From: Jimgerdemannia flammicorona
Lineage: Eukaryota
Assembly (NCBI GenBank): GCA_003990765.1
Contig: RBNJ01000094.1
Coordinates: 1-42,170 of the forward strand
Direction of reading: 5' to 3'
Length of the DNA stretch: 42,170 nt
This document shows, one piece after another, positions 4,420 through 39,205 of this stretch (position 1 is its first letter; each line of letters starts with the position of its first letter). The notes below the pieces were generated by a model. The model had not been told where the DNA came from. It saw nothing but the letters and a program-made list of their open reading frames with translations, and did no database searches. The translations under genes were made by a program, and so were the position numbers.

Positions 4420-4506
4420 TGTAACATCAGTGTCGGGAAAAGTGCATTCACGTGGATGGGATAATCCCGTCCACGTGAATGCACTTTCCCCGACGCTGAT
4501 GTCACA
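4420..4506. repeat. Dispersed palindrome copy 1 (87 bp, centre 4463)
   Basis: TGTAACATCAGTGTCGGGAAAAGTGCATTCACGTGGATGGGAT-A-ATCCCGTCCACGTGAATGCACTTTCCCCGACGCTGATGTCACA. Confidence 0.97.
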
Positions 4507-4554: not shown

Positions 4555-5530
4555 ATGACTAACCAATGTGGATGCTACTGTTTTGAAAGCAGCTACAAAC
4601 TATGTCCGATCTCCAAACCGGTCCCTCTAGGTGTTGTTCGTACTCGCGCTGGAGCCAAAGGTGAGAGTTGTGTGTTATACTATTGTCTAGCCCTTTATTT
4701 ATTTCAATACTCCAGGTGTACAACCCTATAGATATCTTGAGGTGAATACCGCAATACAACTTCTGAATGAATGACTTGGGCATGGCTGGTCCTGCAAATA
4801 CAATGTAGATCATAGGATTGAGGTATTTGTTATGATGTCAATCCGTAAATTCATGTGGTCACGAAATACTAATCCAAATGTAGATGTTCCACAAATCCAC
4901 GGGATTGTGGGAGATTTATGTCGAAGTGACTGCCAAGTCCAAATACATCACGCCAAGCAACCAAACAATAGAACACGAAGTATGTATTTAGCTTACAACA
5001 GCTTCAACTACAACCACTGCTCCATCTAACATAATCTCAGGAATGTGGTGGATTTACACAATCCTCGCGGGTAAAAGGTACAGCGATGACAAATGCTAGA
5101 AAATCGGCCAACTCTGATGCGCTAAAACGAATTGCCGCAACATTCGGCATTACCGTTGTGGGCGAATCCGGCGATAATGATAACTATGTTGTTTGTGATA
5201 CGTTACATATGGCGGAGTTCCCATGCTCACACCTCGTTAATTTAAACATAATAGATACTGATCCCACCCCCCGTCTCTCCTCGCCCAAGTCAAGGTATTT
5301 GTCTCTTTCTTTTATATGTAGCTGTTTCATTTATATCCCATTATTAAGCTATACACATATTATTTTAGGATTGAACCGTATATTGATAGTGTTCAACAAC
5401 ATAGCACACACAGTACATACAGTAAGTATATATTGTACAAAATTAATAGAGCCGTATGGATATTAATTTTCCCACCACTTTCAAAATAGAATCCGATTCA
5501 GTTGATTATATAAATTACAACTGTCAATAA
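4555..5530 (+). pseudogene. Rad52/Rad22-family single-strand annealing protein, 6 exons, one premature TGA (4772-4774)
   Basis: Exons 4555-4660, 4716-4822, 4884-4979, 5041-5294, 5369-5421, 5490-5530 with phase-consistent GT-AG introns. Protein includes VVRTRAGAKGVQPYRYLEVNTAIQLLNE*LGHGWS..GLWEIYVEVTAK..NQTIEHEECGG..AMTNARKSANSDALKRIAATFGI, matching the Rad52 N-domain pattern (R.G..G....Y......I...NE.FG..GW..HED.G.G..KARKEA.TD.LKRA...FG). Confidence 0.85.
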
Positions 5531-5616
5531 ATAATATGTTTGGACATATGATCACAAATAAAGAAGACTTATAAACAGCTTGTAATTGAACAGCTTTATA
5601 CGTTGTTCACTACAAT

Positions 5617-7179
5617 ATGTCAACTCTCGCAGAAACACTATCTATGCCATTTATGGCTTTCAAACTCAATACAACAAATCCTATGATCAGCTCAGACAAT
5701 CTCACCAAACTCATCACTAGCAATAATGATATATGGACACTGTTGCCAAAAATGTTTCAGAAGATAGAGGAATTGTATCAAATTCGCACTTTTACTGCTG
5801 ATGGTAAAGTGACCTTTAGATATGGCGGGGACACGCCTTCGATGACTATCATCGTAAATACCATGGGTGCATATCAGACAACAACCAATGCCATGTCGCC
5901 AGGTACCAACGCAATTTACCAATCTATGGTACAGAAGCCATATGCATACCCATATGAGTCCCCATTCCCGAGGACCTCTGATGGATATGACGATGACCTA
6001 TTACATATGACAATGTCTCAACCTGTTGATGACATGGACATCGATCTGGTGGAGGTTTCCGTTGAAGAATCGCTACACGAGGATTCCGCTACAGAATTGC
6101 TACACGAGGATTCCGCTGCAGAATTGCTACATGAGGTTTCCGCCACAGAATCGCTACACGAGGTTTTCCCAGCTGATACAGAATTGCTACACGAGGTTTC
6201 CCCAGCTGACGCAGAATTGCTACATGAGGTTTCCACCGCAGAATTGCTATACGAGGTTTCCGCCACAGAATTGCTACACGAGGTTTTCCCAGCTGATGCA
6301 GAATTGTTACATGAGGTTTCTGCCACAGAATTGCTACACGAGGTTTCCACCAGAGAATCGCTACACGAGGTTTTCCCGGCCGATGCAGAATCACTACACG
6401 AGATTTTCTCAGCTGACACAGAATCGCTACATGAGGTTTTCCCAGCCGCAGAATTGCTACACGAGGTTTCACAAGTCAAAACAACACCCAGACATGGGCT
6501 CAGAACTCAGAGAGAAACTGCTACCAAAAGAGCAGATGACCCAACCAGAGCACGCCATAGACGACGACATGTTACAAACGGCCGGAGACAAATTAGTTGC
6601 AATTCGAATGAGACATCTTCAGAATCTGAGACAAGAAGTGACACAACAGCAGAGGAGGAGGAGTGTTTGTAGATGCTGCAAATTTTACATGCTATATATA
6701 CACACGCCAGGTGTATAGATCCAGACCAACCATTGGCCACCAGGATACGGCCAGAGAAGTTTATCAAATTGCCCATAGTGCAATCTGCGAGGTCTATCTT
6801 GGACAATGTGATGAATTGGTATAATCAGTTAGCGTCCAAATGTATTTTGGGTAGTATAGGGTTACGCCTTTATAGTATGAGCATCTGTGTCAAATATCTA
6901 CTATATCCGACTGATCTGAACAATTATCAATTGGGGTCATGGAGGGCGGTGTCCAATCAGCTCACCATACAGTACAATCAGCGCAACGCCAACGAGCTTG
7001 GTAAGTGGATTAGGTGTGGGTGGTGGTATCTCGTCTTGGCCAAGCTCTTCAACAGTGTATCTGTTGCGGCGTCATTGTGGAGAGCCACTCATATGTCAAA
7101 GATAACAAATTCAGAATTTAATGAACTGGTGACATATCTACGAATGGAGGACTGTGTTGTAGGTATATTTTTTTTATAG
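5617..7179 (+). pseudogene. Hypothetical protein with acidic tandem repeats and C-terminal helical domain; one in-frame TAG (6670-6672)
   Basis: ORFs 5617-6672 and 6673-7179 are in the same frame, separated only by a TAG. Confidence 0.65.
6064..6472 (+). repeat. Coding minisatellite, 14 copies of E(L/S)L(H/Y)E(V/D/I) units of 27, 30 or 33 bp
   Basis: Core CAGAAT(T/C)GCTACA(C/T)GAGGTTT repeated; all unit lengths are multiples of 3. Confidence 0.95.
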
Positions 7180-7746: not shown

Positions 7747-8850
7747 CTAAATTGTCAAACATTCAACTCCAAATAATTTTACCGGAATACATCCAAGCAC
7801 AAGTGGTATCAAGGGCTGTAGTTGTGGGGCAGACTCACCCACACGCCACATGTCAGTGTGCACAACAACTAGATTACCATGAAAGATCTGTTCGAGGATC
7901 GCATTGAATACAGAGTGTGCCACCGTGCCGAGATCTGTGTCGTGACTCTGCATAACATATTGTGGTACTTTGTTGTTAGCACAGGCCAACCACACATGAC
8001 CGCGTGCAATTTCAGGAAATGCGGCATTGTGGGGCAATTCGTTGTGGTACTCATTGTCATATGCACAGGACTCGAGCAGCTGTGGTTGTGAGCATTTGCG
8101 GACCACTGCAGTAAACAACAAAGCCATGCTACAGACAGTGCAGAATGCCAGCCCAGCCTGCAGCTGTGTATGGTACTGTGGTAGAATCATCCCATCAGGT
8201 GCCCGCGTGTATGGGACCTTAGCATCGACCAGAACAGATGCGAAGAAGTTGGGATCCTGGTCTCGAGGACACATCATCCCATCCACATTGTATCCCATCA
8301 CCACAAGTGCATCAGGTGAGTACCGACAGTGCTGTACGACCTGTAGACACGTGCCACGACCCATGATGTCACAGCAGTACTGTAGCTGCATATACGCGAA
8401 TGCCAGATCCTCTAACATCCGGCCCCATCCACACGCGCGTCTGCCAAACTCGCTGAACGCTTGTATTATGCCTGTCTTCAGGCTGACCAGGCTGCGGAAT
8501 GCCGCAGAGTTTGTAGGCGACGTTGCTGCGAGTGCATCGGAGCCTCCGAGTATGTGTCTAATCAGTTCATACCACTCGGGCGAGTGCTGCACCAGCGGCG
8601 GAAACATATTGACAAATTCGATGAGAATTTGTCGCAGCATGGCTCTAATGGGCGCTGTTGCTGTGGTGCAAAGGCAGACATTGCCAATGGTCTCCAATAT
8701 GCTGCTGTCGTCATGTGACCACCCAGACGTTGTTATCAGTGAACGCGTCTCCTGCATTAGCACCGTGAGCAGATGCTGATCGATCAGCAACAGAATCGTG
8801 TGGGGATGCACATCCAAGTTGATTGGTACGAATTTCTGCATTGCAAACAA
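7747..8850 (-). CDS. Hypothetical protein (~365 aa; may extend past the TAG at 7747 to ~7645)
   Basis: Long GC-richer ORF immediately downstream of the EME1-like gene. No motif recognised. Confidence 0.5.
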   Translation of the reverse strand: MFAMQKFVPINLDVHPHTILLLIDQHLLTVLMQETRSLITTSGWSHDDSSILETIGNVCLCTTATAPIRAMLRQILIEFVNMFPPLVQHSPEWYELIRHILGGSDALAATSPTNSAAFRSLVSLKTGIIQAFSEFGRRACGWGRMLEDLAFAYMQLQYCCDIMGRGTCLQVVQHCRYSPDALVVMGYNVDGMMCPRDQDPNFFASVLVDAKVPYTRAPDGMILPQYHTQLQAGLAFCTVCSMALLFTAVVRKCSQPQLLESCAYDNEYHNELPHNAAFPEIARGHVWLACANNKVPQYVMQSHDTDLGTVAHSVFNAILEQIFHGNLVVVHTDMWRVGESAPQLQPLIPLVLGCIPVKLFGVECLTI

Positions 8851-8868
8851 ATTTTATTATGTATGTAA

Positions 8869-9702
8869 TTAAGTTGCTTTAAATACACGTCGTACTCGAA
8901 AAACATCAAGTATGCGCTGCATGATCTTGTCATGCAATCTCGTCCGGCTGACTACTACATGCACTAGCTTCTGCCGCACGGATATGTCATTGTGAGTATC
9001 GACAAATGTGTAAAATGAATAAAGGTCATGGAATTCGGCGACAAACGCAACAGCAGTTGCATGTGATATGTCTGGAATCTGTATCAGAAAATCTCGAAAT
9101 GCATGCTGACCGAGTCGTGTCTTGGGGACATGGACTATGGCCAGATAATCCTCAGGCAATGCCTTTGACCGATCCTTTTGAGCACATTTCAGCAGCCGTG
9201 CAACTGTGGTTGCTGTGTCTGCAATTGTTGTAGTTCTACACACGACAACATCATCACAACATAACTCCAATGAGATTGTTATGTGGTCGATATCTACAGA
9301 TGCACCCTCGAACAACAGGTAGATCTGCTGATTGGGGAATCGCATTTTTAGATTGTTGACATCGGTTGTCAGCCTATCGTGTGTTGTGTAGAGAATGACA
9401 ATGACACCCTTTTGTCGTGTGTCATTGTTGTTGTCACCACAATCCCAGCAAAGTATGCAGTAGAATGATGGTGATGGCCCATCGAGTTTGCGCCATTCGA
9501 ATACATCCACGTGCACACGTATTTTCGCTTCCAGTATCGACACTGCAGGTGTGTAAAATAGAGTGGGTGTCTGTGTGTGGGCAATGGCAGTGGTAGTGGT
9601 AGCAATACCAACAATGGTTGATGACACTCGAGAGTAAAAATGGCCCCCTCTTAAAACCTCTTCAGGGGATGGAAATTCAAAGTCGTCATCATCATCCGAC
9701 AT
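8869..9702 (-). CDS. EME1/Mms4-like protein (ERCC4-type fold without catalytic motif, plus C-terminal HhH region)
   Basis: Starts MSDDDDDFEFPSPEEVL. Core LKMRFPNQQIYLLFEG..VVVCRTTTIADTATTV. C-terminal FLIQIPDISHATAVAFVAEF..L...Y..RTRLHDKIMQRILDVF matches the EME1/MUS81 HhH pattern. No ERK motif. Confidence 0.7.
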   Translation of the reverse strand: MSDDDDDFEFPSPEEVLRGGHFYSRVSSTIVGIATTTTAIAHTQTPTLFYTPAVSILEAKIRVHVDVFEWRKLDGPSPSFYCILCWDCGDNNNDTRQKGVIVILYTTHDRLTTDVNNLKMRFPNQQIYLLFEGASVDIDHITISLELCCDDVVVCRTTTIADTATTVARLLKCAQKDRSKALPEDYLAIVHVPKTRLGQHAFRDFLIQIPDISHATAVAFVAEFHDLYSFYTFVDTHNDISVRQKLVHVVVSRTRLHDKIMQRILDVFRVRRVFKAT

Positions 9703-10231
9703 CTTGTATATTGAACGACTACTAGTGATTACTGGATATATATGTGTATGTGTGTGTATTGACAAAATAGGATCGTTGACTAGACGCAAGCCATTCAACT
9801 TGTGCAGGTTATGATCGGTTCAACAGTTTATTCATTTGATAGAATGATTTGATACTACTATAAAATGGTACCACATAGACCTGTAGCCACAGCAGCTACA
9901 GCTTGTAACAATAGTAGCATTGTTGCATTTGTTGACAATGTGTGTATCATTTCATTCATGGTTAAATACACTAAGTCATTGGAGTTAATATGCTCAGGTT
10001 GTGCCATAGGGGTGTAGTGGAGACTGAGTGGTGTGAATTTATATACATACATACCATTAGTCTACATGACATACTGAGTAATATTATATAAAAATAAATA
10101 CGATGACATTATACACATATTAGATTCCAAACACGTCTTGTCCCCGACGATGGTGTCATTATAAATTTGAAATGCGGTCACAACATGTAAAGAAATATAA
10201 ACCATGGTAAACTGTCTTAAAAAGCTACAAG

Positions 10232-10696
10232 ATGGCAATACAACGGAGACAAGCGATTGTTACTGGGGTGGATTCAACAACAATCCTTCAACCAACAGAT
10301 GCAATGATGGGGTCAAAATTAGGAGACCATCTCTGCAGTCATCTTGCCACAGAACTGTTGGAGTTTCAACGACTGGATGATTTTCTGCAGGTGTTTAAAT
10401 ACAAACTCAGATGGCAAATGTCTGGTGGGAATAGGAAACCCGGTGTTATCATCATGCTAGACAAGAAGGAGTATTGGAAATTCATCTGTCGCGGTATGCA
10501 AGTTGTCGATGATCTCGCAGACCTGAAAGCGACATTTCCAGACCACTGTATATGTATAATTCTGCAGGGTTTGACTAAATCTGTAAGAATAAACCAACGG
10601 ATAGTTGACGAGTGTAATGCCCATGAAATCGTTATTGAGAGGTCAAGAAATTCTCCAATAACGATTGAACGGGTCATCCAGTATTTGGCAATGTAG
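10232..10696 (+). CDS. Second, stand-alone ERCC4/EME1-like domain protein
   Basis: KPGVIIMLD..DDLADLKATFPDHCICIILQG aligns with KGVIVILYT..DVNNLKMRFPNQQIYLLFEG of the neighbouring gene. Confidence 0.55.
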   Translation: MAIQRRQAIVTGVDSTTILQPTDAMMGSKLGDHLCSHLATELLEFQRLDDFLQVFKYKLRWQMSGGNRKPGVIIMLDKKEYWKFICRGMQVVDDLADLKATFPDHCICIILQGLTKSVRINQRIVDECNAHEIVIERSRNSPITIERVIQYLAM

Positions 10697-10792: not shown

Positions 10793-11335
10793 ATGTCAAT
10801 TACAACCCAATTCAAAGATGATCTGGCAGCAATAATCAACGACATAGTGCTGCACGATGCATCCGTGGTCTGTGCCAATGGGCAGGTCATCGGTGTGTAT
10901 AGTGCGGTACTTGCTGTCTGTTGTCCACTGTTCTGAACTATGTTTTATGGCAATGTACATTCCAAGCAGGTCCTGCTGGACGATGTGTCTGTCGACATGT
11001 TACACTACATCCTGCACTTCTTGCATGCTGAGCGACTGCCAAAGATCATGGATACTGACATCGCTGAACTCTATTGTGTCACAGTTCATCTAGATCTGCA
11101 CAAGCTACAAACGCAGCTTGTGGTGCGACTGATTGCCAAATTGAATGGCGAGGGTGGTAGTGTGCGTGCAAGTGAGCTTTTCGACAGGGCTATTGCATTA
11201 CGAATTGATCCAATACGTACACGCAAATTCTATGATACGCTCATCCAGGCTCTACCAGCGCAAAATATTACAACTGTCCAGTTACAGGCACTGGCGGGGT
11301 TAATCAATAATATAGGTGTGATCAGAGGACAATGA
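10793..11335 (+). pseudogene. BTB/POZ-domain protein, in-frame TGA at 10934-10936
   Basis: DLAAIINDIVLHDASVVCANGQVIGVYSAVLAVCCPLF*TMFYG..VLLDDVSVDMLHYILHFLH. Confidence 0.85.
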
Positions 11336-13717: not shown

Positions 13718-13795
13718 TGTGATGTTGTCGTTGGGGAAAGTACATTCACGTGGACAGGATTATCCCATCCACGTGAATGCACTTTCCCCGACGCT
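13718..13795. repeat. Dispersed palindrome copy 2 (centre 13761; right arm shorter)
   Basis: TGTGATGTTGTCGTTGGGGAAAGTACATTCACGTGGACAGGAT-T-ATCCCATCCACGTGAATGCACTTTCCCCGACGCT. Confidence 0.97.
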
Positions 13796-14006
13796 ATTTA
13801 ATTAATTATATTTGAAATTGGTAATATAGATGTGATATTAAATAGCATATATGATATCATTGCAAGAGCATGTTGTAATTGATATCGTATTTAGCCAGCT
13901 AAACTATCCTTAATGTGTAAACAGACGGTAACCAATGACTCGGACTTGAGGTTGTACTAATTGTACAATATAACAATCCCTGCCCCAACTATAGTGACAA
14001 ACAAAA

Positions 14007-14771
14007 ATGACACACTCCGCTACACAAGAGACAGTCTATGAAATGCTACTTCCGGGGTATGCCAAGGCAGCTCTACAGTCGTTGATTGTATGGGTGCAAT
14101 ACCAAGAGCTGCACCATGAGGATGGTTGTTGTGTACGCATCGTTCTATATGGGAGTGGCAAGGCCACGTTGGAGCTAGAATATTTCGACGGCACCTGTAA
14201 TTCGTACACAGTATCGGCTGCCGGATATGTCCCGCTGTTGAGATGTAATTTATGTAAATGCACCGAAGCCTATTCAACTGCAGACAATGGCATACCAAAA
14301 CATGGCTCACGACTGGAATGTGGTCATTTTATATACACGGATTGTATGAAGTCCATCTGGATCAACAATGGTCGCTGTCTCGATTGCAATCAACAGCTTG
14401 TACAAGGAGATCCAACGCATGTCACCCTAATTCAACAAAATAAGTTTCTCAGAATGATACTGAAGCATCAAAATATCGAATTTCCTGACCCCTTCCACCA
14501 TGACGAATGGTGGCATAAGTTCCGAATGCGCCACCTGATGGGAGCAGACAATGACGTCGCCACCACTGCTGTGGTCGTTGCCTCATCCACAACAACTACA
14601 GCGACGAACAGCAGTGAGCTGTCGTCACCACACATACAGCAACAAATATACTCTCCATCATGTAAGTCTATCGTTGGCGAGCCACAGGAGTCCAAAGGCA
14701 AAGGTAGCAAACTATCCACACCCACACCCACACCACCGTCTGGTGACAAGGACGCAGACGCAGTGCCATAA
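14007..14771 (+). CDS. RING-H2-like zinc-finger protein (putative E3 ligase; one His ligand is Tyr)
   Basis: CNLC...RLECGHFIYTDCMKSIW..GRCLDC. Confidence 0.75.
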   Translation: MTHSATQETVYEMLLPGYAKAALQSLIVWVQYQELHHEDGCCVRIVLYGSGKATLELEYFDGTCNSYTVSAAGYVPLLRCNLCKCTEAYSTADNGIPKHGSRLECGHFIYTDCMKSIWINNGRCLDCNQQLVQGDPTHVTLIQQNKFLRMILKHQNIEFPDPFHHDEWWHKFRMRHLMGADNDVATTAVVVASSTTTTATNSSELSSPHIQQQIYSPSCKSIVGEPQESKGKGSKLSTPTPTPPSGDKDADAVP

Positions 14772-15907: not shown

Positions 15908-17164
15908 TTACATTAAATATGCTCCAAATTCAGCAGAACAGCGATTCAACTGTTGCACTTTCAACATACCCATTAGATGTATGTTGTAGTGGTCTGCGAT
16001 CTTGGTGTTCTTGAGATAGCGATAGTGATTTACAAGCCATTTCAACACAGATGCTGTGTTTGCACTGTCGGTGTTTATGCTGGTGTTTAGCAAATCTGAT
16101 AGCAACTGTTCCAGTAGCTCACCAATCTGCTGGATCGATTGTTGGGTGTTACAGTTGGTGAGCACAGTGCAGAGCACGTTCATGACTCGAAGTTCCCTGG
16201 TAAAGGTTGCATTGGCCACCGTCTGCAATGTCGACACCAGCCGAGTGCGGAACTGAAGCACTGGTCGATGGGTATTGTCATGTAAACGTAAAGCACTGTC
16301 CATGGTATCGATCGCGCATGGGTCGCAGTCCTGGGCAACCTGTAACACAGTCCAGTATATTGCGAGTGTGATGCTGATCTGTATGTGTATGCCAGGTTCT
16401 TCGCGCACTTGTGCCAGCGCCTGTCGCCTATATTCGTCACATTTTGCAAGGCGATCTGTGTGGTAGTAGAACACACACAGATCTACTAATGTGTTATCAT
16501 ATGGCTCTTGTTTGGACAGTTTGTCCTGCATAGACCATACCAAAAGGCACTCTGTATCGTCGTTCTTCCTTTGTCGTGTGTATATTATGGCAAGGCAGGT
16601 TGTGATGTGCGGAATCAGTGGATGGTTTATATGGTGTGCGTTGCTGTCCAGCAACATCAGGGCATTCTGGAGGCGGACTGAGGCATCCGCATCGCAACCA
16701 GGTTGTTCAGCAAGCATGCAGCCATAGTTTGCAAACACCTCCACCTTTACAAGGGGGGACATAGTGGTAATATTTGTCAGCATCTCAAGATACTGGAAGA
16801 TGGCACCAGCCTTGACTACATCTCCATCCAGTCACCAGGTATTGGCCATCATAATTCGCACAGCTACAATAAAATGGTTGGTACGTGGATAGCTGATCCG
16901 CAGAATTGCGACCACATAGTTCCACATTTCTCGTGCAAAAGAATATAATCTACGACTACCGAACAGCTCTGCTATGTCCCGCAGTACAAAAGCTGTTATC
17001 TGTCCACCCTGCTGTCTGATTATAGTCCTTATTTCAGCATACACAGCTGCATTGCATTTGCTCAGTTTTGTAAAGGAGTCATTGATACACTGTTGTAGGA
17101 CTTGTGGATTCGACAGCGGATTCGACAGCCACCATAGAGGTGGCATAATTGAGTTGGAATACAT
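15908..17164 (-). pseudogene. TPR-repeat-like protein, in-frame TGA at 16832-16834
   Basis: ORFs 16832-17164 and 15908-16783 are in the same frame. HPLIPHITTCLAIIYTRQRKNDDTECLL and NTASVLKWLVNHYRYL resemble kinesin-light-chain-type TPRs. Confidence 0.6.
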
Positions 17165-17347
17165 AAAACACCCTTCGGATAATAAATATATATATCAGGA
17201 TTATGTTACATGGTACTAGTATTAGATTAATCATATGTTTGTGACTACCATCATTATATCTAGTCTCATTATTATTAAAACGGTTTGCTACATCCTAACA
17301 TATATATCCCAAGATGATTAAACAACACAAATCATAACTCTATTAAA

Positions 17348-20300
17348 ATGCCAAATAATAAGCAACCGCAACAATTTGATGATAGTAAAAACAGACGGAT
17401 ACGACACAACTCCAACCAACCACCGCTGCTACTACACCGCCTGCATTGGATGTGCCCACAGGCTCCGATCATAAACTGTGAGAGCGATGAACTCATGTTT
17501 CAGCAGATGGATATTCGCGTAGAGTTTTGCAATGGCGAGGAGATCGTGATCATGATTGGAACAACTATTGAGGGGTATAGTGTTATGTGTCGGGTGTGCG
17601 GATTTAGACTATATTTTTATATCTGCGCGCCCAACACTGTCCAACGGGACAATCTACCATTGTTGGTAGCATGGCTGCAATGGTATGTAAATGTGTCTGT
17701 GTGCAACTGTAGGATTGTTGATAGTAGAGACATATACAACTACACAGGGTCAGGCTTGGAACCATTCATTAGGTTCACCACTGCAACGGACGCCACTAGA
17801 CAACAACTGGTGAATTTTATACAGAATTGAACAGTCTTTGGTCCGCCCAGTTGCACCATTGTGCGTGATGGCAAATTGTATAAAAGCGATGTGAGTCCGG
17901 ATCTGCGATTCATGGTCGACCACACGATAACCAGGGCCGGATGGGTGCGAATCCCTGCTGGAAATTACATGTTGTGTGTCTCACGGACATCACACTGTCG
18001 GTATGAAGTCGAAACAGACGTCAACGCAATCCAGAGCGTGCCCTACAACTCCTGTGACGCGGGTTCATGCATCGCGCCCTTGCGGGTACTGAGCTTCGAT
18101 ATCGAGTGTCGCGGTCACAAGGGCATTTTTCCGGAGCCCGAACATGACCCTGTCATACAGATTGGCTGTGCTGTGGCTGTGTTGGGTGTGGCAGACCCAC
18201 CCAAACGCGTTGTGTTTGTGCTGGGGGGGTGCACCATGCCACTCGACGATTGCGAAGTGCGGGTACACACCTCTGAGAAGGCACTCCTGCTCGACTGGTA
18301 CCGGTTTGTGGTGTACGAGGTCGATCCAGACGTGCTGACAGGCTACATGATTACCAAGTTCGACATCCCATATCTGATTAACCGTGTGTGTGCATTGGGT
18401 ATTGAGCATACATTCGCACAGCTGGGCCAGATTGTCGACAGGGAAACCACAATCAACCAGAATGTTACAAAGACCAAGGCATATAGTATCAACAACACAA
18501 ACAAAATCGACATCGCGGGCCATCTACTGCATGATATCTATGATATGGTCTGTCTCGATTACAAGCTCCCTGGTGGAAACAAACTCAATGACATCTGCAA
18601 GCACTACCTTGATGGTGAAATGAAGGTGGACCTACACCACAGCATGATCACGCCGCTGCACGACGGCAGTAGCGATGACAGACGAAAACTAGCCGAGTAC
18701 TGCATATAGGACGCGACACTACCATTACTACTGATGGCGCGATTTGCGAGTATGACTAAGTATATTGAGCTGGCGTGCATCACAGGTGTACCATTCGCAT
18801 ATTTGTTACTGCACAGCCAGCAGATCCGGGCCATGTCACAATTCTATCGAAAGACACGTGAACTGAACTATCTCATTCCTGTATCCGATCCTGTCAAGGG
18901 TGTTATCGCAAATGGGCCACAGTACCAGGGCGCGAAGGTGCTCGACGCGACCCCTGGCTACTACCAAGTGCCAATCTGCATGCTTGACTACAGCTCGCTG
19001 TACCCGACCATCATGATCGACAACAATCTGTGCTACAGCACAATCGTCGACACTACCACGATTGTGCGTCTGCAGCTTGTCAAGGATGTAGACTACATTA
19101 CAATCAGGGGTAACGAAGCTGATGCCACAACCGACCATCACTTTGTAACCCCATTACAATGCAGGGGCGTCGTGCCACAGATTCTTACAACACTACTTGA
19201 CTGCAGGAACGCGGTCAAGAAAGAGCTTAAAGACGAAGGCGACGCTCTGAAACGTGCAATTTTAGATGCGCGCCAGCAGGCAATGAAGCTCTGTGCAAAC
19301 TCACTCTACGAGCTGACAGGCGTTGCCGGCGGAAAGCTTGCAAGTCTTGCAGTCGCCACCAGTGTTACAGCGAGTGGTCAAGGCATGATCAAACGGGCGA
19401 AATCGATGATTGAATTTACCTTTACCATCACAAAAGGCGAGAAACACGATGCCCAGGTGGTGTATGGCGACACAGACTCTGTGATGGTTAATTTTGGACC
19501 AATATCAGTTGCAGACACAATCGAACTCAGCAAACGTGCTGCAGGATTGCTGTCCAACATACCCGGTCATCGCGAGACGTTGAACTTCGAATGGGCATTC
19601 ATGCCATTCCTGCTTGTTGGTAAAAAGTGCTATGCAGGGCTGACGGGGGTCAATAACAGTTTGGTCATCAAAGGCATCCAGACTGTAAAGCACGACACAA
19701 GTGAGTATATTGCCACGACCGTTGAACGGTGTCTTGAGATCCTGTTTGCCAGCCCACAAGGTGGGCTCGATGCAATGACAATGCACATCAAGGACAAGAT
19801 CTGGGTGCTATTGCAAGATGAGCTTGATCCCGCTGTATTTGCTATTACAAAACAGTGGAATGCATCTCTGGTGTCGATGGCCCCAGGCCGACATGCACCG
19901 GGCCTAACAAATGGCACAGGCCCGCGCCAGAGAATCATGAAGGCTATGAGTTCAAAAATCCAACTACTGCTACAAGCAGATGTTCAACAGCAGCAGCCAC
20001 ACATCGCTGCTACCATCAGGAGTAGGTTAGTTGATGCGCCCGAATGTGGTGATCATGTCACATATGTGATTACAGCCAAAGCTGGAGGTGAGTGAGTGAA
20101 ATATACTAGTGTGATTATATATGAATATATATATATATGTGTATACTAATATTCAATAGTAAAATGTATAAGCAACAGGGCTGTACTGCTCCAGAGTGTG
20201 CTCGAGGATTGTCTGCCGATAGATCAGGACTACTACCTCCAGAGTTTGATACGACTACTGCTGACGATGTTCTCACCCGTGTTTGGTGGTGAAAAACGAA

Positions 20301-20392
20301 TGCATCGTGAAATATGTAAGTTTGCAGAATTTCGCAAATTCGCATGTATTTCATTCACTAATAATAATAATCATCATCAACATCACTGGTAA
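17348..20392 (+). pseudogene. Family B DNA polymerase, Pol-delta-like catalytic subunit; two in-frame stops (17828 TGA, 18707 TAG), one intron 20088-20159
   Basis: ExoI LSFDIECRGHKGIFPEPEHDPVIQI, ExoII PDVLTGYMITKFDIPYL, ExoIII YCI*DA, region II YQGAKVL..LDYSSLYPTIMIDNNLCYST, region III QQAMKLCANSLYELTG, region I YGDTDSVMV, and C-terminal VLEDCLPIDQDYYL. All in one frame. Confidence 0.96.
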
Positions 20393-20788
20393 TAGTCATG
20401 GGTGACCATATGCATAGTGGCGGTCAGTCTTCGCTCAGAGATTTCTGGACAACTACTTCCTCTCAATAGTTGTAATCATACCACAGGTTTAAACTTCACG
20501 GCCTGAGGATAACATATTTGTACTATTATATTGAAAGTGTGAGGAAATGGTAGTGATTATCTAATATCTATATTGTTGTTACATTTCATTCATAAGAGTC
20601 TTCTGACTATTCACGACCAAGACCAGTCTTCCCTCTATTGTTTTGCATATGTATAACAAATTTGAGATATATAAAATATCGTTGAAATAATTATCGAACT
20701 CACTAATATAAACATTTGCAAATAATGGATATTTATTTGTTCATTTATAACATCTCTTGATAATACAAATTTATTCGAGATCCAAACT

Positions 20789-21442: not shown

Positions 21443-21525
21443 TCACGTCATCGTCAGGGAAAGTGCATTTATGTGGATGGGATTATCCCGTCCACATGAA
21501 TGCACTTTCCCCGACAATGACGTGA
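21443..21525. repeat. Dispersed palindrome copy 3 (83 bp, centre 21484)
   Basis: TCACGTCATCGTCAGGGAAAGTGCATTTATGTGGATGGGAT-T-ATCCCGTCCACATGAATGCACTTTCCCCGACAATGACGTGA. Confidence 0.97.
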
Positions 21526-24229: not shown

Positions 24230-24312
24230 CCATGTCATCGTTGGGGAAAGTGCATTCACGTGGATGGGATTATCCCATCTACGTGAATGCACTTTTCCCA
24301 ACAATGACATGG
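24230..24312. repeat. Dispersed palindrome copy 4 (83 bp, centre 24271)
   Basis: CCATGTCATCGTTGGGGAAAGTGCATTCACGTGGATGGGAT-T-ATCCCATCTACGTGAATGCACTTTTCCCAACAATGACATGG. Confidence 0.97.
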
Positions 24313-25043: not shown

Positions 25044-26093
25044 ATGGCTGTTGCAATGCGAAGTATGAGAGCAAGAACGCGGTCGCAGATGCGTGGACAA
25101 CCATGGATTGCAAGCTATGATGTTCTATCTAAGAAGCGAGTGTGGCAACGTCAGGTAACACTGTTGCAAACTGATAATACAGTTGATGATATTGCAATGA
25201 CAGTCATTGCAACGCCAATGACGATATCAACAATACACCCATTACCGTCACCACCAAGCATCTGTACAACCGATACCACAACAATCTGCATTGTGGCTAT
25301 TATGGCGGTTACAACAATATGCGCTGCTACTCCGGCAGTTATAACAATATGCACTGCTACTCTAGCAGTTACAACAATATGCGCTGCTACTCCAGCAGTT
25401 ACAACAATATGCGCTGCTACTCTGGCAGTTACAACAATATGTGCTGCTAATATAGCAGCTACAATAATATGCACTGATACTTCTGTAGCTACAACAACAA
25501 CAGACACTGCTACTACAGCTACAACAAAAAAAGTCCAAAGACAAACCCAGTTGTTAACCAGACTGCATAATATACACGACAGGTTGAGTATAGATCCCAC
25601 CATTAACAATACCATTGTTAACGATCACAATGTGGGCATCATTCGGGCAAATCTATACAACATTCGACTAGCTGCATACATTGCACAATATCAATATTTG
25701 CATAATATCAATACGCTAACTCCGAGACAGAAGGGTTGTATGTTCTTTGAGGCAGAAAGGACGTTTCGCGACACACAGTTGAAGAGCACAGACAAACCTA
25801 TGGAAATATATAACTTTGATAGCAAGTATCGCAGTGCCCGAGCAACATATCTTCGTTTTGTTCAGCAGTTTGGATTTGGTGTTGTGCTTATCTCCAAAAC
25901 CACCATAGGCAGTTTTGTTGATATATCACAGACATTACTGGATGCAAATATGCCCAATACTACAGTAGTATCACAATATTATATGAAATTTACTAGTGCA
26001 CATTGTAGAACAGCTATTATTGGGGAGCTAGTGAAGATCATCAATGATCTGACTAAAGTTGAAGCTGAGTTTGTAATGATGTTTGGTATATAG
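25044..26093 (+). CDS. Hypothetical protein with Thr/Ala repeats and C-terminal helical domain
   Basis: Intact 349-aa ORF. Confidence 0.6.
   Translation: MAVAMRSMRARTRSQMRGQPWIASYDVLSKKRVWQRQVTLLQTDNTVDDIAMTVIATPMTISTIHPLPSPPSICTTDTTTICIVAIMAVTTICAATPAVITICTATLAVTTICAATPAVTTICAATLAVTTICAANIAATIICTDTSVATTTTDTATTATTKKVQRQTQLLTRLHNIHDRLSIDPTINNTIVNDHNVGIIRANLYNIRLAAYIAQYQYLHNINTLTPRQKGCMFFEAERTFRDTQLKSTDKPMEIYNFDSKYRSARATYLRFVQQFGFGVVLISKTTIGSFVDISQTLLDANMPNTTVVSQYYMKFTSAHCRTAIIGELVKIINDLTKVEAEFVMMFGI
25304..25500 (+). repeat. Coding minisatellite, 30-bp unit (AVTTICAATP/L), about 6 copies
   Basis: GCAGTTACAACAATATGCGCTGCTACTC.. in tandem. Confidence 0.9.
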
Positions 26094-27343: not shown

Positions 27344-30062
27344 TCATTCAGAAGTTTGTTTGCGTTTTGTTTCTGCTGCGACATGATCTCTTTTTAAGAG
27401 TACCGTCATTCATCTACAACACATATCTGGAGTTCTACCTGGAATGTCCACCAAAATTGTTATCCAACTGCATCCATGCTCATTGTGACATTGGTGCAAC
27501 AGTATATCTTCGTCAGATGTCCATTGTGTCTTCTTCTTAATCGATACACCTAAAGCATTTTCTCATCTATATTGATAGTTATGACTCTCCTTCCCTGGAA
27601 TCGTAGATGCTATCTTCTCCCACTGACGACCATGTAGTGTATATGCCTTCCACAACAGTTTGTCATCATCCTTTGTCCATGTAGTAGTAGTTTTGATATC
27701 GCTTGTTACAGCTGTTGAGATATATCCTCTAGGCTTAGTACATAGATATCTGTAGATATTATACAATTACAAATTAGAATATAGGCATATATTATATTTC
27801 TGTAAAATTCAATAATAGCATACCTAACCAAGGCCTCTCTCTTTTGTATATTGGGAACTGTTTGAATAATATCATCAATTATAGTAGATGATACACCAAC
27901 AACGACTGGTCCATTTTCTATTAAAATTGTCGTAGCTCGTTGTTCAAGCTCTGCGGCAGTTGTCTGTTTAGATATCTCATAATGTTCAAGTTTGAGTGTG
28001 CGCACTCTTATAAACCACAATAGCTTTTGGTATTGTTTGAGCAGATCAGGTGCCTCTTTGGTCTAATAAATAGTAAGAGAGTGTATATATATGTGAGGAG
28101 ATGATGATGATGTATTAGATATTCTAAAAAAATAAAACCCTTACTAGATAGTGCCATCTTCGTATCCCTAACGGATTTAGTTTTTTTTTTAATTTAGCTA
28201 CATCTTCCTTCCATTTAATGATGGTAGTATCTGTCTCTTAGAGTCGCTGTTGAGTTGTCTTGGATTGAAGTACAGGTGATGGGATCTGTACTAGTGGAGC
28301 CCTGAATGCAATCACATCATCGTGATGTTGTGCTGAGGCATCAGAACCTAACATCGCTCCCATTATGTTAACACCTACTGGTCGTGTATAGTACATATGT
28401 AACATATTAGATTTGGGTGAGTGATATAGTGCTTGCTTTGCTTTGGCATCTCCAACCCTCTTGGAAATTGCATCAGCTGCACTTCGGTGAAACATATAGG
28501 CTGAAAATGACTCTATATAAACAGAGTTCTTATTAGAAATATGAACATAGATTAATATACCATATATATACATTATTATATATACCTGCATATCCAGCCT
28601 TTTGTGCGATAAGTGATAAAAAACTATCAAACAAATTTGTTGTAAGAGGACTATTTCCAGCAGCATTCTGAAATACTGTAGTGTTCAGTATCTCTGGTGC
28701 CCATTCAATAGTGGTATATTTAGACTGAAATAGATCTTCCAGAGTTGTGAATGCTTTAAAGGCACTACATCGAATAGCCCAGGTGATAAGCATAATGATA
28801 GGACACAGGTCTAGTTTTTGGGCATCCTGTACTGGTTGTATAATCCATGAAAGTCTGTGTAATAATAATAATAATAATAATAAATTAATATAATATAAAT
28901 ATTTACATAGACCAATTATAAATATTATACATACGGTGCTTTGCCTCCTTTCACAGTACGAAATACTATTGTTGCATGGAAAACTGGACCCAGTTTATCT
29001 AATCCCTCATATGTCAGCTTGATGTCCTATATCAAATCATATATCAATATCTCTCAAATAATATTGTGTGTGTGTGTATGTGTTAATAAATAAATAAATA
29101 AAATACCAAACATACACTCCATTTCAAGGCTCTGTCATGTTGATGGTGTATAGTACTTGAAATAAGAGATCCTGGCCAGACGGCTGTAAACATCATTAAC
29201 AGCCACAGTGTAATGTGTTTAAATGTAAGATCCCAGTCACGGTTATTTTTGTGTGCCTCCTGCACCAAAACATGAAGCTCTGATTCACCAATAAATGTTT
29301 TAGGCTTTTGAGTTGTTGTAAGATTGCGCTGAGTTGCAATCATATCAACTGCCTGCAAAATAATATATGTATTTAATTTAGTTGATATGTATATATAATA
29401 AAACATCTCTATAAGTAATAATAATAACAATTATTCATACTTGGGTAATTTGTATTTTATCACCATCAGAGAGTTGAAAGTGTTCGACATCTTTCCATAG
29501 CTATAATAACAAATATTAGAACAAGTCTAAATAATATTATAAATAAAAAAACGAATTGGATAATATACATACTAGTTTTAGTAATAACGTCTTAGTTGTC
29601 ACTAAATATTCCTTCGACATAGGTGTTTTATTCGGGCTTAATGTTGTCATTGCTTTCGCAATCAGGAAGCTCTTTATATTGTCTGAGAATGAAATATAAT
29701 GTTAGTAAAAATAAATAAATAAATAAATATATGAGATGCTCGCAGATGTCAGCAATTATATTTTACATACCCACAGTCGCATGTTGAATAGTCCATGCTG
29801 CCGCCTTTGAAACTCCATTAGCTTCCATATACTCGTTCCATTGTCTAGTAACTAGGTCGTGGTTCCGTTTGGTTAATGGTGATCTCGTATCAAAGTCGTT
29901 GGCTTGTGTACTTAGAGTCTTGATTTCCGTGAGTTCGCTGGCACCCAGGAGTGCAAATTTGTTCAATCGTCTTGCACCGGGGGGTTTGGGGCTCACCCGT
30001 CTCGCCGCACGGGACAATTCTGTGCTCTTGGTTGAAGATCCTCTCTGTTTTACAGGAGCCAT
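27344..30062 (-). pseudogene. Multi-exon tyrosine recombinase, DUF3435/Starship captain-like, with two C-terminal Myb/SANT repeats; inactivated
   Basis: Motifs in order: LLMMFTAVWPGSL (R>W of RPG), ALKWS|DIKL, FRTVKGGK, LDLCPIIMLITWAIRCSAF, SAYMFHRSAA, ALYHSPKSNMLHMYY. Then WTKDDDKLLWKAYTLHGRQWEKIASTIPGK..YR*ENAL and WTSDEDILL..HGCSWITI..IPGRTPDMCCR*. Introns 28513-28585, 28063-28144 and 27729-27823 are phase-consistent. Three in-frame stops. Confidence 0.8.
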
Positions 30063-30073
30063 AGTTGGAAGAG

Positions 30074-30123
30074 GTGGCAGTGGTGGTGGTGGTGGTGGTG
30101 GTGGCGGTGGTGGCGGCGGTGGT
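30074..30123. repeat. (GGT/GGC)n microsatellite just upstream of the recombinase ATG
   Basis: About 16 trinucleotide units. Confidence 0.95.
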
Positions 30124-30158
30124 AGTAAAGAGTAAACAACTATCCTTGTGGAAATAAA

Positions 30159-30273
30159 ACATCCGGTCCACATCCCCGTGCATACTGGGGCACACGCCGG
30201 ATGTGCCGGTGTAATCCGGATTACGAACACGTGTCCGCAATATTGCGGACTACTACGATTAATCTGACCCGGG
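30159..30273. promoter_or_regulatory. CpG-rich cluster of adjacent short palindromes upstream of the recombinase
   Basis: ACATCCGG(30159)..CCGGATGT(30197), GTAATCCGGATTAC 30211-30224, ACACGTGT 30227-30234, GTCCGCAATATTGCGGAC 30233-30250, GATTAATC 30257-30264, CCCGGG 30268-30273. Regulatory function is inferred. Confidence 0.55.
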
Positions 30274-30642
30274 ACCCACGGGTGTCGCGGGTGTCTCAAA
30301 ACTTCAGGCTCGAGTTTGGGAATGGTGTCGTGAGTCGGAATGTGTGTCGCGGATGTGTTGGTGGAATAGGAATGGATGGGAAATCAGTTTATAATTTCAT
30401 TTTGTAAGAGTGTTGGAAGCGATGGGACACATTATGAAATCGGCGCTTTGATTTAAAGTGCGTGAGTCGGGGACGACTTTAAGAAACTTTCAAACAAGAG
30501 TTATTACCTTCCCGCCCACTCATTTGGACGGTCGATTTTGGTGAGTTAGACTGATATTGTATAATGGATAATGCATATGTGCAGATAAAATCGTCACACC
30601 GTTATTGCAGGCCAATTAAATAAAAATAGCATACAATTACAT

Positions 30643-38400: not shown

Positions 38401-39205
38401 ATGCCTGCTGCCCGCCAAACCTCAAGGTCAAGGAATCATCAAGGTATCTCGGTCGAGGAAAGAATGTTCCAAGACATCAGAAGAGCCATGAGGAACCACT
38501 CAAGAAGGACTCCTAGTGTTAACCTGGGTACTGCAGACCCCTATCACTTCATTCTCTACCGCCGCGAAATGGAAACAAGGATCACCATCGCCACCAAATG
38601 CCTCCAAATGTGGCAGGAGTACAAAATAGGAAACCTCCTCTGCCAGGAGTTCCCACAGGCCAGCCCTCAAGAGCTACAAGATGCCACCCCCATGGACCTA
38701 CATAAGGCAAGGACAGCAAAGAAGATCTATCAGATCTTCAGACATGCACCATGGTCGATCCCCAACTTAGAGTATGTTAGAGTCTCAGACTTCAGAGACC
38801 TGTCATCTGGCCGTATCAATGCACTAAAAGCCAGGGTAGCTACAGAAGCCCAGTCCACCATCACCCTCAACAGCGAAGAAGTAGAAGACTTCTGGCACCC
38901 TATCCTTCAGGACAACTCAGACCAATTCCTGCAAGGATTGATCTCAGTATTCCAAGACCCAAGCATCTGGGTTAGATCTCCCCAAGACCCCACATTTGTC
39001 CCCTATTTTGTGGAAGAGAACCTCATAGACTGGAGAGCCCCAGACCTTGTTCCCGACTTCTCCGCCACAGCCGAACGTGATGACGTCATTGATGACATCA
39101 TCCCGCGCAACATCAAAGCATGCGAAAATGACGAAGTACATGAGATGCACGGCCTGCATGACGAATTCGTGGACCTCATCTCCTTCAGTGATGATGATGA
39201 TGATA

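What the first reader, a model, noticed from the sequence alone, without database searches (positions are those of the whole stretch)
17348..20392. Nearly intronless Pol-delta-like polymerase without an obvious C-terminal CysA/CysB domain
Seen: all exonuclease and polymerase motifs, a single 3' intron, a divergent thumb region, and an end shortly after PID..YYL with no paired CxxC clusters. Known: cellular Pol3 uses CysA/CysB to bind accessory subunits, whereas viral PolBs lack them; it is not a protein-primed Polinton-type enzyme. Inference: a captured, streamlined Pol delta that evolved as an element replicase before inactivation.
Basis: partly seen in the sequence, partly recalled or inferred. 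Interest (0 to 1): 0.75.

Follow-up and report, generated by a model that had tools for sequence, protein, structure and literature searches.

The report
Decayed tail-less Pol-delta-like polymerase copy
This is a broken copy of a repeated fungal gene for a DNA polymerase that descends from the cell's own polymerase delta but lacks the tail that docks the partner subunits, so it probably once worked alone, perhaps copying the repeated DNA that carries it.

Summary
Window 17348-20469 (+) holds a family-B DNA polymerase gene read in one frame, with two in-frame stops and two short predicted 3' introns. The spliced model is 989 aa. It is closest to cellular Pol delta (35-40% identity). The best of 577 viral relatives reach only 26-30%. 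The gene stops where the CysA/CysB tail should begin, and no such tail lies elsewhere in the window.

It is not a neutral pseudogene of host POL3. It forms a supported clade with an intact, equally tail-less paralogue named Jimgerdemannia flammicorona and with two metagenomic sequences. This clade sits inside eukaryotic Pol delta but outside the fungal Pol3 orthologues. Both 3' introns sit at the same position and phase in a metagenomic relative. Neutral decay to 40% identity would give about 21-25 stops, not 2.

At least three other contigs named for that species hold fragments that are 72-87% identical. These differ almost only by transitions, half of them at CpG, so this is a silenced repeat family.

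The 'element replicase' idea stays inferred. No termini, transposase or capsid gene were found. The context offers only a YqaJ-like exonuclease ORF, a weak Rad52 motif, dispersed palindromes and a Crypton-like recombinase.

The parts
17348..20087 (+). Exon 1 of the polymerase pseudogene. It covers the N-terminal region, the 3'-5' exonuclease domain, palm, fingers and most of the thumb: 913 codons plus one base, with no intron.
   Evidence: Translation and Pfam; tblastn with fungal Pol3; alignment A1.
17828..17830 (+). In-frame stop TGA (codon 161), at a column where most homologues have Gly.
18707..18709 (+). In-frame stop TAG (codon 454), inside the Exo III motif YC(L)K-DA.
19862..19987 (+). 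42-aa insertion in the thumb. It is specific to this family: the copy P0124 has it too, and all 9 aligned homologues lack it.
   Evidence: Alignment A1; P0124 sequence. Coordinates computed from residues 839-880.
20088..20159 (+). Predicted intron 1: 72 nt, GTGAGT ... TACTAAT ... AG, phase 1.
   Evidence: Sequence; spliced frame restores the homology; same position and phase in metagenomic relative L138. Inferred, no RNA data.
20160..20315 (+). Exon 2, carrying the LPID..YYL ... PVFGGEK stretch (end of the thumb).
20316..20395 (+). Predicted intron 2: 80 nt, GTAAGT ... ACTAAT ... AG, phase 1.
   Evidence: L138 has a GT at the same residue count after PVFGG and in the same phase, and its contig ends inside that intron. 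Inferred.
20396..20469 (+). Exon 3: F-MGDHMHSGGQSSLRDFWTTTSSQ, then stop TAG at 20467-20469. It ends where the CysA of Pol3 would start.
   Evidence: In P0008 the aligned GDH ends at residue 957 and zf-C4pol starts at 981.
7750..8853 (-). Context: open 368-aa ORF resembling YqaJ/RecE-type PD-(D/E)XK recombination exonucleases.
   Evidence: Pfam YqaJ 5e-3, below cut-off; PHROG 434 RecE-like 1.6e-4; Atlas, 22 of 30 named hits are YqaJ clusters, score 0.96, mostly Nucleocytoviricota. No sequence homologue found and the fold failed.
5035..5160 (+). Context: short Rad52/Rad22-like motif (about 36 aa, KSAxSDALKR).
   Evidence: Pfam PF04098 at 22.2 bits, cut-off 20.3, E 1.5e-4; 17.1 bits in the long read-through; yeast Rad52 8g3g at E 1.5. 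Upstream pieces gave no Pfam hit. Weak.
4420..4506 (.). Context: copy 1 of 4 of an 86-nt palindrome with two CACGTG boxes. The other copies are at 13718-13795, 21443-21525 and 24230-24312. All four are intergenic.
27417..30383 (-). Context: Crypton-like unit made of tyrosine-recombinase (DUF3435-like) fragments and two Myb repeats. It may be a separate insertion.
   Evidence: Pfam DUF3435 at 3.5e-3 and 0.13, both below cut-off; Myb at 5.3e-13; CryptonF architecture from passages of PMC3212892.

Best explanation
The locus is a dead copy of a repeated gene family encoding a Pol-delta-derived family-B polymerase. The protein keeps the proofreading exonuclease and polymerase core but has no C-terminal CysA/CysB domain.

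Shown: the lineage is an old, separate branch of Pol delta that includes an intact tail-less paralogue in the same named species. It kept an open frame while diverging to about 40% identity. It has a conserved gene structure of one long exon plus two small 3' introns. It exists in several copies that have since drifted apart by transitions, about half of them at CpG, as expected for methylated, silenced repeats. This copy picked up two stops and hits in catalytic motifs.

Inferred: without the tail the enzyme could not bind the Pol31/POLD2 B-subunit, a role the literature assigns to the CTD. It would therefore have acted as a stand-alone polymerase, as viral Pol-delta-like enzymes do. The most likely job of such a multi-copy, intron-poor gene was to replicate the repeated, probably mobile or virus-derived DNA that carried it.

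Confidence by part: about 0.8 for 'distinct tail-less Pol delta lineage, multi-copy, recently inactivated'; about 0.35 for 'replicase of a mobile element'.
For: Identity. Pfam exo and pol domains are present. Yeast Pol delta scores 1e-80 against zeta at 3e-25 and herpes at 5e-24. The top cellular hits are fungal Pol delta at 36-42% (803 hits among 7998 candidates, 120 listed).

Not viral-type. Of 598 pattern matches in viral contigs, 577 were relatives, and the 80 kept reach only 26-30% identity.

No tail; zf-C4pol is found in 2 of 2 controls and 0 of 4 clade members.

Clade. Window + P0270 + P0122 have SH-aLRT 99 (54 rows, LG+G4) and 98 (24 rows, LG+C20 PMSF). Without the window, P0270 + (P0122 + L138) has 98 and lies outside the fungal Pol3 clade (96). 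Forcing the clade to be sister to the Mucoromycota Pol3 stand-in costs 19.75 lnL, p-AU 0.037.

Selection before decay. In simulated neutral decay to 40% identity the median is 21-25 stops, and 0 of 200 runs have 2 or fewer. At 87% identity the median is 5-6.

Conserved intron positions and phases in L138.

Copies. P0124 is 87% identical, P0289 85%, P0285 74% and P0293 72%, on contigs of 1543, 29358 and 25278 bp, all named J. flammicorona. All were predicted only as fragments.

Decay spectrum. Of 109 amino-acid differences, 86 are single transitions, 9 transversions, 2 either and 12 multi-step. Of the 86 transitions, 44 are in CpG/TpG context. Differences fall almost as often on conserved columns (32/247) as on variable ones (77/413), OR 0.65, p 0.065.

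CTD role: introduction passages of PMC7544198.
Against: No element boundaries, terminal repeats, target duplications, transposase, integrase, primase, helicase, packaging or capsid gene were found in 1.2-30.5 kb.

The DNA of the other copies could not be fetched, so it is unknown whether more than the polymerase gene is repeated.

The intact paralogue P0270 could be an ordinary chromosomal gene, which would fit a host function.

The window sequence has a very long branch (1.49 and 2.65 changes per column), and the clade's position among eukaryotic Pol delta is unresolved. Elements plus fungi form one clade in the best tree, but with support of only 26.

The AU p-value of 0.037 is marginal. The host's own POL3 was not in the tree, so a Bifiguratus protein stood in for it.

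The viral outgroup was 12 loci (later 5) that I chose out of 80, and they form one tight clade. Herpes-, pox-, asfar- and mirusvirus enzymes and Pol zeta were not in the trees.
Confidence: 0.55

Rival explanations
1. Host paralogue family. A tail-less Pol delta paralogue arose by gene duplication in the fungal lineage for a cellular task such as repair or recombination-linked synthesis. This locus and the other fragments are ordinary duplicated pseudogenes lying in repeat-rich DNA, and no mobile element is involved.
For: P0270 is intact and carries POL3_N plus complete exo and pol domains. The clade lies within eukaryotic Pol delta and next to fungi and opisthokonts under the mixture model. 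It has spliceosomal introns with fungal-type signals. No transposition or virion genes were found. The neighbours (PP2C, BTB, RING-like, TPR-like, Myb) are common cellular domain types.
Against: There are at least four loci at 72-87% identity, all fragmented and with a methylated-repeat type of decay. A 2.7-kb intron-free exon is unusual when one Glomeromycota Pol3 model is labelled CDS:10 by its source. Other ORFs in the same 25 kb are broken in the same way by single in-frame stops. A YqaJ-like exonuclease whose nearest Atlas clusters are giant-virus ones lies 9 kb away.
Confidence: 0.27
2. Relic of an endogenous large DNA virus that had acquired a Pol delta gene. The 1.5-27 kb stretch would be a decayed fragment of an integrated viral genome, with the polymerase, a YqaJ recombinase, host-interaction proteins (BTB, RING, repeats) and hr-like palindromic repeats.
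For: The nearest Atlas clusters of the YqaJ-like ORF are mostly Nucleocytoviricota (22 of 30 named hits are YqaJ), and YqaJ recombinase is listed among giant-virus core genes in passages of PMC13533422. The genes are intron-poor and closely packed on both strands. Four dispersed intergenic palindromes are present. The polymerase is tail-less, like viral ones.
Against: The polymerase is far closer to cellular Pol delta than to any of 577 viral relatives and separates from them at support 100. No capsid, packaging ATPase, primase-helicase, VLTF3 or RNA-polymerase gene turned up in the six-frame Pfam scan. No close relative was found in viral contigs. A YqaJ domain is also the second ORF of ISL2EU transposons (passages of PMC4482050). 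Atlas taxa rest on few members.
Confidence: 0.13
3. Neutral processed pseudogene of the host's own POL3 that lost its 3' end.
For: It is nearly intron-free, has in-frame stops and damaged motifs, and its best database hits are fungal Pol delta.
Against: It retains two introns whose positions are shared with a distant relative. It has only 2 stops and no frameshift at about 40% identity, whereas simulated neutral decay gives 21-25 stops (0 of 200 runs with 2 or fewer). It groups with an intact tail-less paralogue and with metagenomic sequences rather than with Mucoromycota Pol3. No poly-A tract follows the stop.
Confidence: 0.02

Closest known systems
Eukaryotic DNA polymerase delta catalytic subunit (Pol3/POLD1; e.g. 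yeast 3iay)
   Same: It has the same exonuclease and polymerase core and motif order. It is 35-40% identical over about 900 aa to fungal Pol3. The clade falls inside eukaryotic Pol delta. The Pol-delta-specific POL3_N domain is detected in the relatives P0270 and P0122.
   Different: It has no CysA/CysB C-terminal domain. It carries a 42-aa thumb insert. It lies outside the fungal orthologue clade. It is multi-copy and decayed. Its gene structure is one long exon plus two 3' introns.
Pol-delta-like polymerases of large eukaryotic DNA viruses (NCLDV and herpesviruses; EukVir2/3 of PMC7544198)
   Same: These are stand-alone family-B enzymes related to Pol delta that lack the CTD (relationship read in passages of PMC7544198). 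That is how this enzyme would have had to work.
   Different: The best of 577 viral-contig relatives are only 26-30% identical, and herpes polymerase scores 5e-24 against 1e-80 for Pol delta. The viral rows separate from the clade at support 100. No viral hallmark genes lie nearby.
Self-synthesizing transposons (Polinton/Maverick, casposons) with their own family-B polymerase
   Same: They share the concept of a mobile element that carries its own PolB. These are named only from the search listing and from recall.
   Different: Those elements use protein-primed PolB plus an integrase or Cas1. Here there is no PF03175-type hit for the window protein and no integrase or Cas1, and the enzyme is an RNA/DNA-primed Pol delta type.
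Crypton and Starship tyrosine-recombinase elements of fungi
   Same: DUF3435-like recombinase fragments with Myb repeats lie 7-10 kb downstream on the opposite strand. CryptonF elements encode YR plus a DNA-binding domain (passages of PMC3212892).
   Different: The recombinase hits are below the Pfam cut-off, the unit has the size of a separate roughly 3-kb Crypton, and no link to the polymerase was shown. That Starship captains are DUF3435 proteins is recalled, not tested.

Membership tests
Pol delta catalytic subunit (Pol3/POLD1) | Family-B exonuclease and polymerase domains with Pol delta as nearest relative | tested here: met
   Pfam 3.6e-44 and 2.8e-77; 3iay at 1e-80 against zeta at 3e-25; inside the eukaryotic Pol delta clade at support 100 against viral rows.
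Pol delta catalytic subunit (Pol3/POLD1) | C-terminal domain with CysA (Zn) and CysB (Fe-S) motifs that binds the B-subunit (PF14260) | tested here: not met
   No tblastn hit to the Pol3 C-terminus in the window; no Cys-cluster ORF downstream; PF14260 found in the controls P0008 and P0022 but not in P0121, P0270, P0122 or P0125; the spliced model stops 19 aa after the GDH motif.
Pol delta catalytic subunit (Pol3/POLD1) | Orthology: branches with the Pol3 of its own taxon (fungi, Mucoromycota) | tested here: not met
   It lies outside the fungal Pol3 clade (99; 96). Sister position to Bifiguratus Pol3 gives p-AU 0.037. Caveats: long branch, and the host's own POL3 was not included.
Pol delta catalytic subunit (Pol3/POLD1) | Pol-delta-type N-terminal domain (POL3_N, PF24055) | tested here: inconclusive
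   Detected in P0270 (2.4e-5) and P0122 (1.6e-5) but not in the decayed window protein at E 0.01. The region does align to Pol3 from about residue 50.
Viral Pol-delta-like PolB (NCLDV, herpes) | Groups with viral polymerases and sits in a viral genome context | tested here: not met
   26-30% identity to the best 80 of 577 viral relatives; separated at support 100; no hallmark genes. Only one viral clade was sampled in the trees.
Protein-primed PolB of Polintons, casposons and linear plasmids | PF03175-type polymerase with terminal-protein regions, next to an integrase or Cas1 | tested here: not met
   No PF03175 hit for P0121; no integrase or Cas1 in the six-frame scan.
Processed (retro-copied) pseudogene | No introns, poly-A remnant, neutral decay since insertion | tested here: not met
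   Two introns conserved with L138; no poly-A tract; 2 stops against a simulated 21-25 at this divergence.
Repeat family silenced by cytosine methylation or RIP-like mutation | Copies differ mainly by C-to-T / G-to-A transitions, with a context bias | tested here: met
   86 transitions against 9 transversions among 109 differences; 44 of 86 at CpG/TpG. Classical RIP indices are not met: TpA/ApT is 0.66 and (CpA+TpG)/(ApC+GpT) is 1.31. Methylation itself is not testable here.
Mobile element (transposon or integrated virus) | Defined termini, target-site duplication, recombinase or capsid, polymorphic insertion | not testable with these tools
   The DNA of the other copies and of the second assembly could not be fetched: no genome is held, and no sequencing run was listed. 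Within the window no termini were found.

The most novel reading that the evidence does not exclude
Endogonales fungi harbour, or once harboured, a so far undescribed kind of large self-replicating DNA element or endogenous virus. Its replicase would be a Pol delta catalytic core stripped of its subunit-docking tail, working together with a YqaJ-type exonuclease (and possibly a Rad52-like annealase) and with dispersed CACGTG-bearing palindromes acting as origin- or enhancer-like repeats. The intact paralogue P0270 would then be either a still active copy or a domesticated one. This would be the first eukaryotic mobile element built around a cellular-type, primer-dependent replicative polymerase.
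Probability: 0.2. Interest if true: 0.85.

Novelty: new variant of a known kind. Interest (0 to 1): 0.58.

Why it matters
According to the review passages read (PMC7544198), all four eukaryotic replicative family-B polymerases carry a CysA/CysB tail. A eukaryotic Pol delta lineage that dropped the tail, kept an open frame for a long time and multiplied would therefore be a natural experiment in turning a holoenzyme subunit into a stand-alone polymerase. That is the same step assumed for the origin of viral Pol-delta-like enzymes.

If the carrier proves to be a mobile element or an integrated virus, it would add a new replication strategy to eukaryotic mobile DNA and a new virus-like lineage in early-diverging terrestrial fungi. 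If instead it is a host paralogue, it is a new fungal polymerase to characterise. In either case the intact relative P0270 makes the question testable at the bench.

My searches of the paper library found nothing describing it. Searches run: 'Jimgerdemannia' + 'virus'; 'Mucoromycota' + 'endogenous viral' + 'DNA polymerase', 0 papers; 'polymerase delta' / 'transposon' / 'fungi' / 'self-synthesizing'; 'B-family DNA polymerases' / 'Pol delta' / 'CysB' / 'viruses'. Supplementary files, such as the PolB trees of fungal endogenous viral elements in PMC13533422, could not be seen and may bear on this.

Tried and rejected
- Whole-genome search: no genome is held for this window.
- Sequencing runs: none was listed for 17348-20470 and no RNA holder was listed.
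- Close relatives in viral contigs with the read-through protein: none.
- Metagenome scan with alignment A2: of 592 pattern matches, 513 were relatives and 80 were kept. In 5 of the 80 the longest ORF was another gene. Of the other 75, 74 score higher to canonical Pol3 (P0008) than to the tail-less clade. Only L138, on a 2.5-kb contig, is closer to P0122, so no genomic context was gained.
- Homologue search for the exonuclease ORF: 0 hits among 2069 candidates.
- PDB sequence search for the exonuclease ORF: only chance-level hits at E 0.6.
- AlphaFold without an alignment for that ORF: mean pLDDT 35, unusable, so no fold search was run.
- Pfam on the pieces upstream of the Rad52 motif and on ORFs 8872-9819 and 10211-10693: nothing. 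My by-eye reading of a split Rad52 N-domain is therefore unsupported.
- PHROGs on 20 ORFs: only the RecE-like hit and two chance-level ones.
- The 54-row tree under the mixture model did not finish in two runs. I used LG+G4 for 54 rows and the mixture model for 24 rows.
- Classical RIP is rejected by the dinucleotide indices.
- Intron positions in canonical Pol3: the Ascomycota-like metagenomic genes inspected show an intron after ...GAQE in the thumb, which is a different place. They were not examined at the window's two positions, so this says nothing about a Mucoromycota POL3.
- Earlier findings of the scan: nothing for this genome. The three sequence look-alikes are archaeal PolB operons of no bearing.
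Full report
WHAT IS THERE. From the ATG at 17348 a single frame runs to 20087 and reads as a family-B DNA polymerase. Pfam gives DNA_pol_B_exo1 at 3.6e-44 and DNA_pol_B at 2.8e-77. The frame is interrupted by TGA at 17828-17830 and by TAG at 18707-18709, the latter inside the Exo III motif. Among solved structures the polymerase half matches yeast Pol delta at 1e-80. Pol zeta scores 3e-25 and herpes polymerase 5e-24. tblastn with four fungal Pol3 proteins gives one collinear match, 17441-20299, at 35-37% identity over about 980 residues. It gives nothing for the last 120 or so residues of Pol3 anywhere in the window.

THE 3' END. The sequence supports two short introns with fungal-type signals: 20088-20159 (GTGAGT...TACTAAT...AG) and 20316-20395 (GTAAGT...ACTAAT...AG), both phase 1. 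Splicing them gives an in-frame model of 989 codons. Its homology to Pol3 continues through LPID..YYL and PVFGGEK to a GDH motif, and it then stops at 20467-20469. In the control Pol3 protein P0008 the aligned GDH ends at residue 957 and the zinc-finger domain begins at 981. The gene therefore ends at the border of the missing tail. No + strand ORF between 20290 and 22700 has paired Cys clusters. Pfam zf-C4pol is found in both control Pol3 proteins and in none of the four members of this clade. The introns are predictions. Their best support is that locus L138, a metagenomic relative, has an intron at the same residue count before P-I-(D/N) and a GT at the same count after PVFGG, both in phase 1.

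STATE OF THE COPY. The catalytic carboxylates are present (FDIEC, DYSSLYP, YGDTDS), but several hallmark residues are altered (SLYE for SxYG, GYM for GYN, KKCY for KKRY, VKHD for VRRD). The window deviates at 45 of 178 columns that are invariant in nine other sequences. A 42-aa insert sits in the thumb. The copy P0124 shares it, so it is a family trait.

RELATIVES. A full HMMER pass over 1.84 billion representatives gave 12,696 hits. Of the 150 listed, only one exceeds 41% identity: P0124, at 87% over 268 residues. A word-based search among short proteins found 25 hits, 6 of them named Jimgerdemannia flammicorona by their source. Two of these are gene models of a contig of this window's length. 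The other four (P0124 87%, P0289 85%, P0285 74%, P0293 72%) lie on contigs of 1543, 29358 and 25278 bp. All are fragments, which suggests that these copies are broken as well.

More distant relatives are P0270 and P0125, named for the same species. P0270 is 902 aa and 39% identical, with all motifs intact and the DNA_pol_B profile covered from 1 to 453, and it ends 13 residues later. P0122 is 900 aa and comes from a metagenome contig. In viral contigs the best 80 of 577 relatives are 26-30% identical.

PHYLOGENY. All rows were chosen by me.
- With 54 rows (28 labelled Pol delta or clade proteins, 14 unlabelled representatives, 12 of the 80 viral loci) under LG+G4, window + P0270 + P0122 form a clade (SH-aLRT 99). 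It lies inside eukaryotic Pol delta (100 against the viral rows) and outside the 16-row fungal Pol3 clade (99).
- With 24 rows under LG+C20 PMSF the clade again has 98. It sits in a polytomy with fungi, an insect and Tritrichomonas.
- Clade plus fungi is one group in the best tree, but with support of only 26.
- Forcing the clade to be sister to the Mucoromycota stand-in (Bifiguratus) costs 19.75 lnL, p-AU 0.037.
- Leaving out the decayed window sequence and adding L138 gives P0270 + (P0122 + L138) at 98, still outside the fungal clade (96).

Caveats: the branches are long (window 1.49 and 2.65), only one viral clade was sampled, there is no Pol zeta, herpes or mirus row, the host POL3 is missing, and these were quick searches without bootstraps.

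NOT A NEUTRAL POL3 PSEUDOGENE. I mutated the window's own codons at random until amino-acid identity fell to 40%. The median was 21-25 stops, and 0 of 200 runs had 2 or fewer, at kappa 2 or 20. At 60% identity the median was 14-17. At 87% it was 5-6, with 9-20 of 200 runs at 2 or fewer. Two stops and no frameshift therefore fit neutral drift only since the copies separated. Most of the divergence from Pol delta accrued while the frame was kept open. The absence of CysA/B exons rules out the second.

HOW THE COPIES DECAYED. I compared the window's codons with the four copy fragments. Of 109 amino-acid differences, 86 need one transition, 9 one transversion, 2 either and 12 more than one change. 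Of the 86 transitions, 44 are in CpG/TpG context and 21 in CpA/TpA. The window is on the A/T side against P0124 (22 against 7), and the other three copies are on the A/T side against the window. This points to independent C-to-T decay in each copy. Differences hit conserved columns nearly as often as variable ones (32/247 against 77/413, p 0.065). Classical RIP indices are not met (TpA/ApT 0.66, (CpA+TpG)/(ApC+GpT) 1.31). CpG observed/expected is 0.57-0.86 across the surrounding 1.4-30.4 kb, against 1.10 in the neighbouring UDP-glycosyltransferase gene. The pattern fits deamination of methylated cytosines in silenced repeats. Methylation itself was not measured.

SURROUNDINGS. Host-like genes flank the region: a GH31 C-terminus at 431-1185 and a UDP-glycosyltransferase at 30646-32753. 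Between them lie closely packed, mostly intron-free ORFs on both strands, several broken by single in-frame stops (5590-6669|6673-7176 and 15911-16831|16835-17194). Recognisable domains and ORFs are:
- PP2C at about 3529-4263 (6.6e-17);
- BTB at about 10850-11134 (7.7e-9);
- a RING-like Cys/His pattern at 13998-14768, read by eye only;
- a TPR-like ORF next to the polymerase (Atlas 0.96, but low recognition);
- two Myb repeats at about 27417-27679 (5.3e-13);
- weak DUF3435 tyrosine-recombinase fragments at 28241-30383.

Two items bear on DNA metabolism. The first is an open 368-aa ORF at 7750-8853 (-). It matches YqaJ (Pfam 5e-3) and RecE-like PHROG 434 (1.6e-4) over the same stretch, and 22 of its 30 named Atlas neighbours are YqaJ clusters, mostly from giant viruses. 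The second is a 36-aa Rad52 motif at 5035-5160 (22.2 bits against a cut-off of 20.3), whose upstream part I could not confirm.

YqaJ proteins occur both as giant-virus core genes (passages of PMC13533422) and as the second ORF of ISL2EU transposons (passages of PMC4482050), so this ORF does not settle the carrier's nature. Nothing resembling a capsid, packaging ATPase, primase, helicase, integrase or DDE transposase was found. The recombinase-plus-Myb unit has the size and layout of a separate Crypton (passages of PMC3212892). Four copies of an 86-nt palindrome with two CACGTG boxes sit in intergenic gaps between 4.4 and 24.3 kb. They could be foldback MITEs or origin- or enhancer-like repeats.

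VERDICT. It is unproven on capture and on the role as an element's replicase. The best reading is a dead member of a repeated family of tail-less, Pol-delta-derived polymerases that forms an old separate branch with an intact relative in the same fungus. That a mobile or virus-derived element carried it is plausible (about one in three) but rests on multi-copy status, gene packing, the repeat-type decay and a YqaJ-like neighbour. I found no description of such a lineage in the paper searches run. Supplements were closed.

Noticed in passing
window 4420-4506, 13718-13795, 21443-21525, 24230-24312: Four copies of an approximately 86-nt near-perfect palindrome, each with two CACGTG boxes. All are intergenic and all lie inside the polymerase-bearing stretch. 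Three copies scored as self-palindromes, arms 90-93% complementary; copies are 66-86% alike; two copies' outer arms differ yet stay self-complementary. They could be foldback MITEs or origin- or enhancer-like repeats.
   Followed up: partly
window 27417-30383 (-): Crypton-like unit: DUF3435-like tyrosine-recombinase fragments in several frames or exons, followed by two Myb repeats. It abuts the UDP-glycosyltransferase gene.
   Followed up: partly
window 5590-7176 (+) and 15911-17194 (-): Two further long reading frames are each broken by one in-frame stop (at 6670-6672 and 16832-16834). This is the same style of damage as in the polymerase and suggests that the whole stretch decayed by point mutation without indels.
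   Followed up: no
window 6025-6446 and 25266-25527: Coding tandem repeats of 27 nt (ELLHEVS-type acidic repeat) and 30 nt (TTICAATPAV-type) inside two ORFs of unknown function.
   Followed up: no
window 38347-42170 (+): LTR-retrotransposon-like gag with a zinc knuckle, followed by a dUTPase domain that runs off the window. CpG observed/expected is 0.23, the strongest CpG depletion in the window.
   Followed up: no
window 20089-20292 (+): The source's own gene model (P0272, and likewise P0124 for another copy) continues after the first 3' intron in the alternative frame (...GGDKMYKQQGCTAPECARG...). It therefore misses the Pol3-homologous LPID..YYL exon.
   Followed up: yes
L138:400-560: The metagenomic relative L138 has its Exo I region (FDIEC) in another frame than the rest, which implies two compensating frameshifts about 150 nt apart. 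This is either a decayed copy or an assembly error.
   Followed up: no
window 34001-35000 and 37001-38000: Two very AT-rich kilobases (GC 0.21) flank the retrotransposon region.
   Followed up: no
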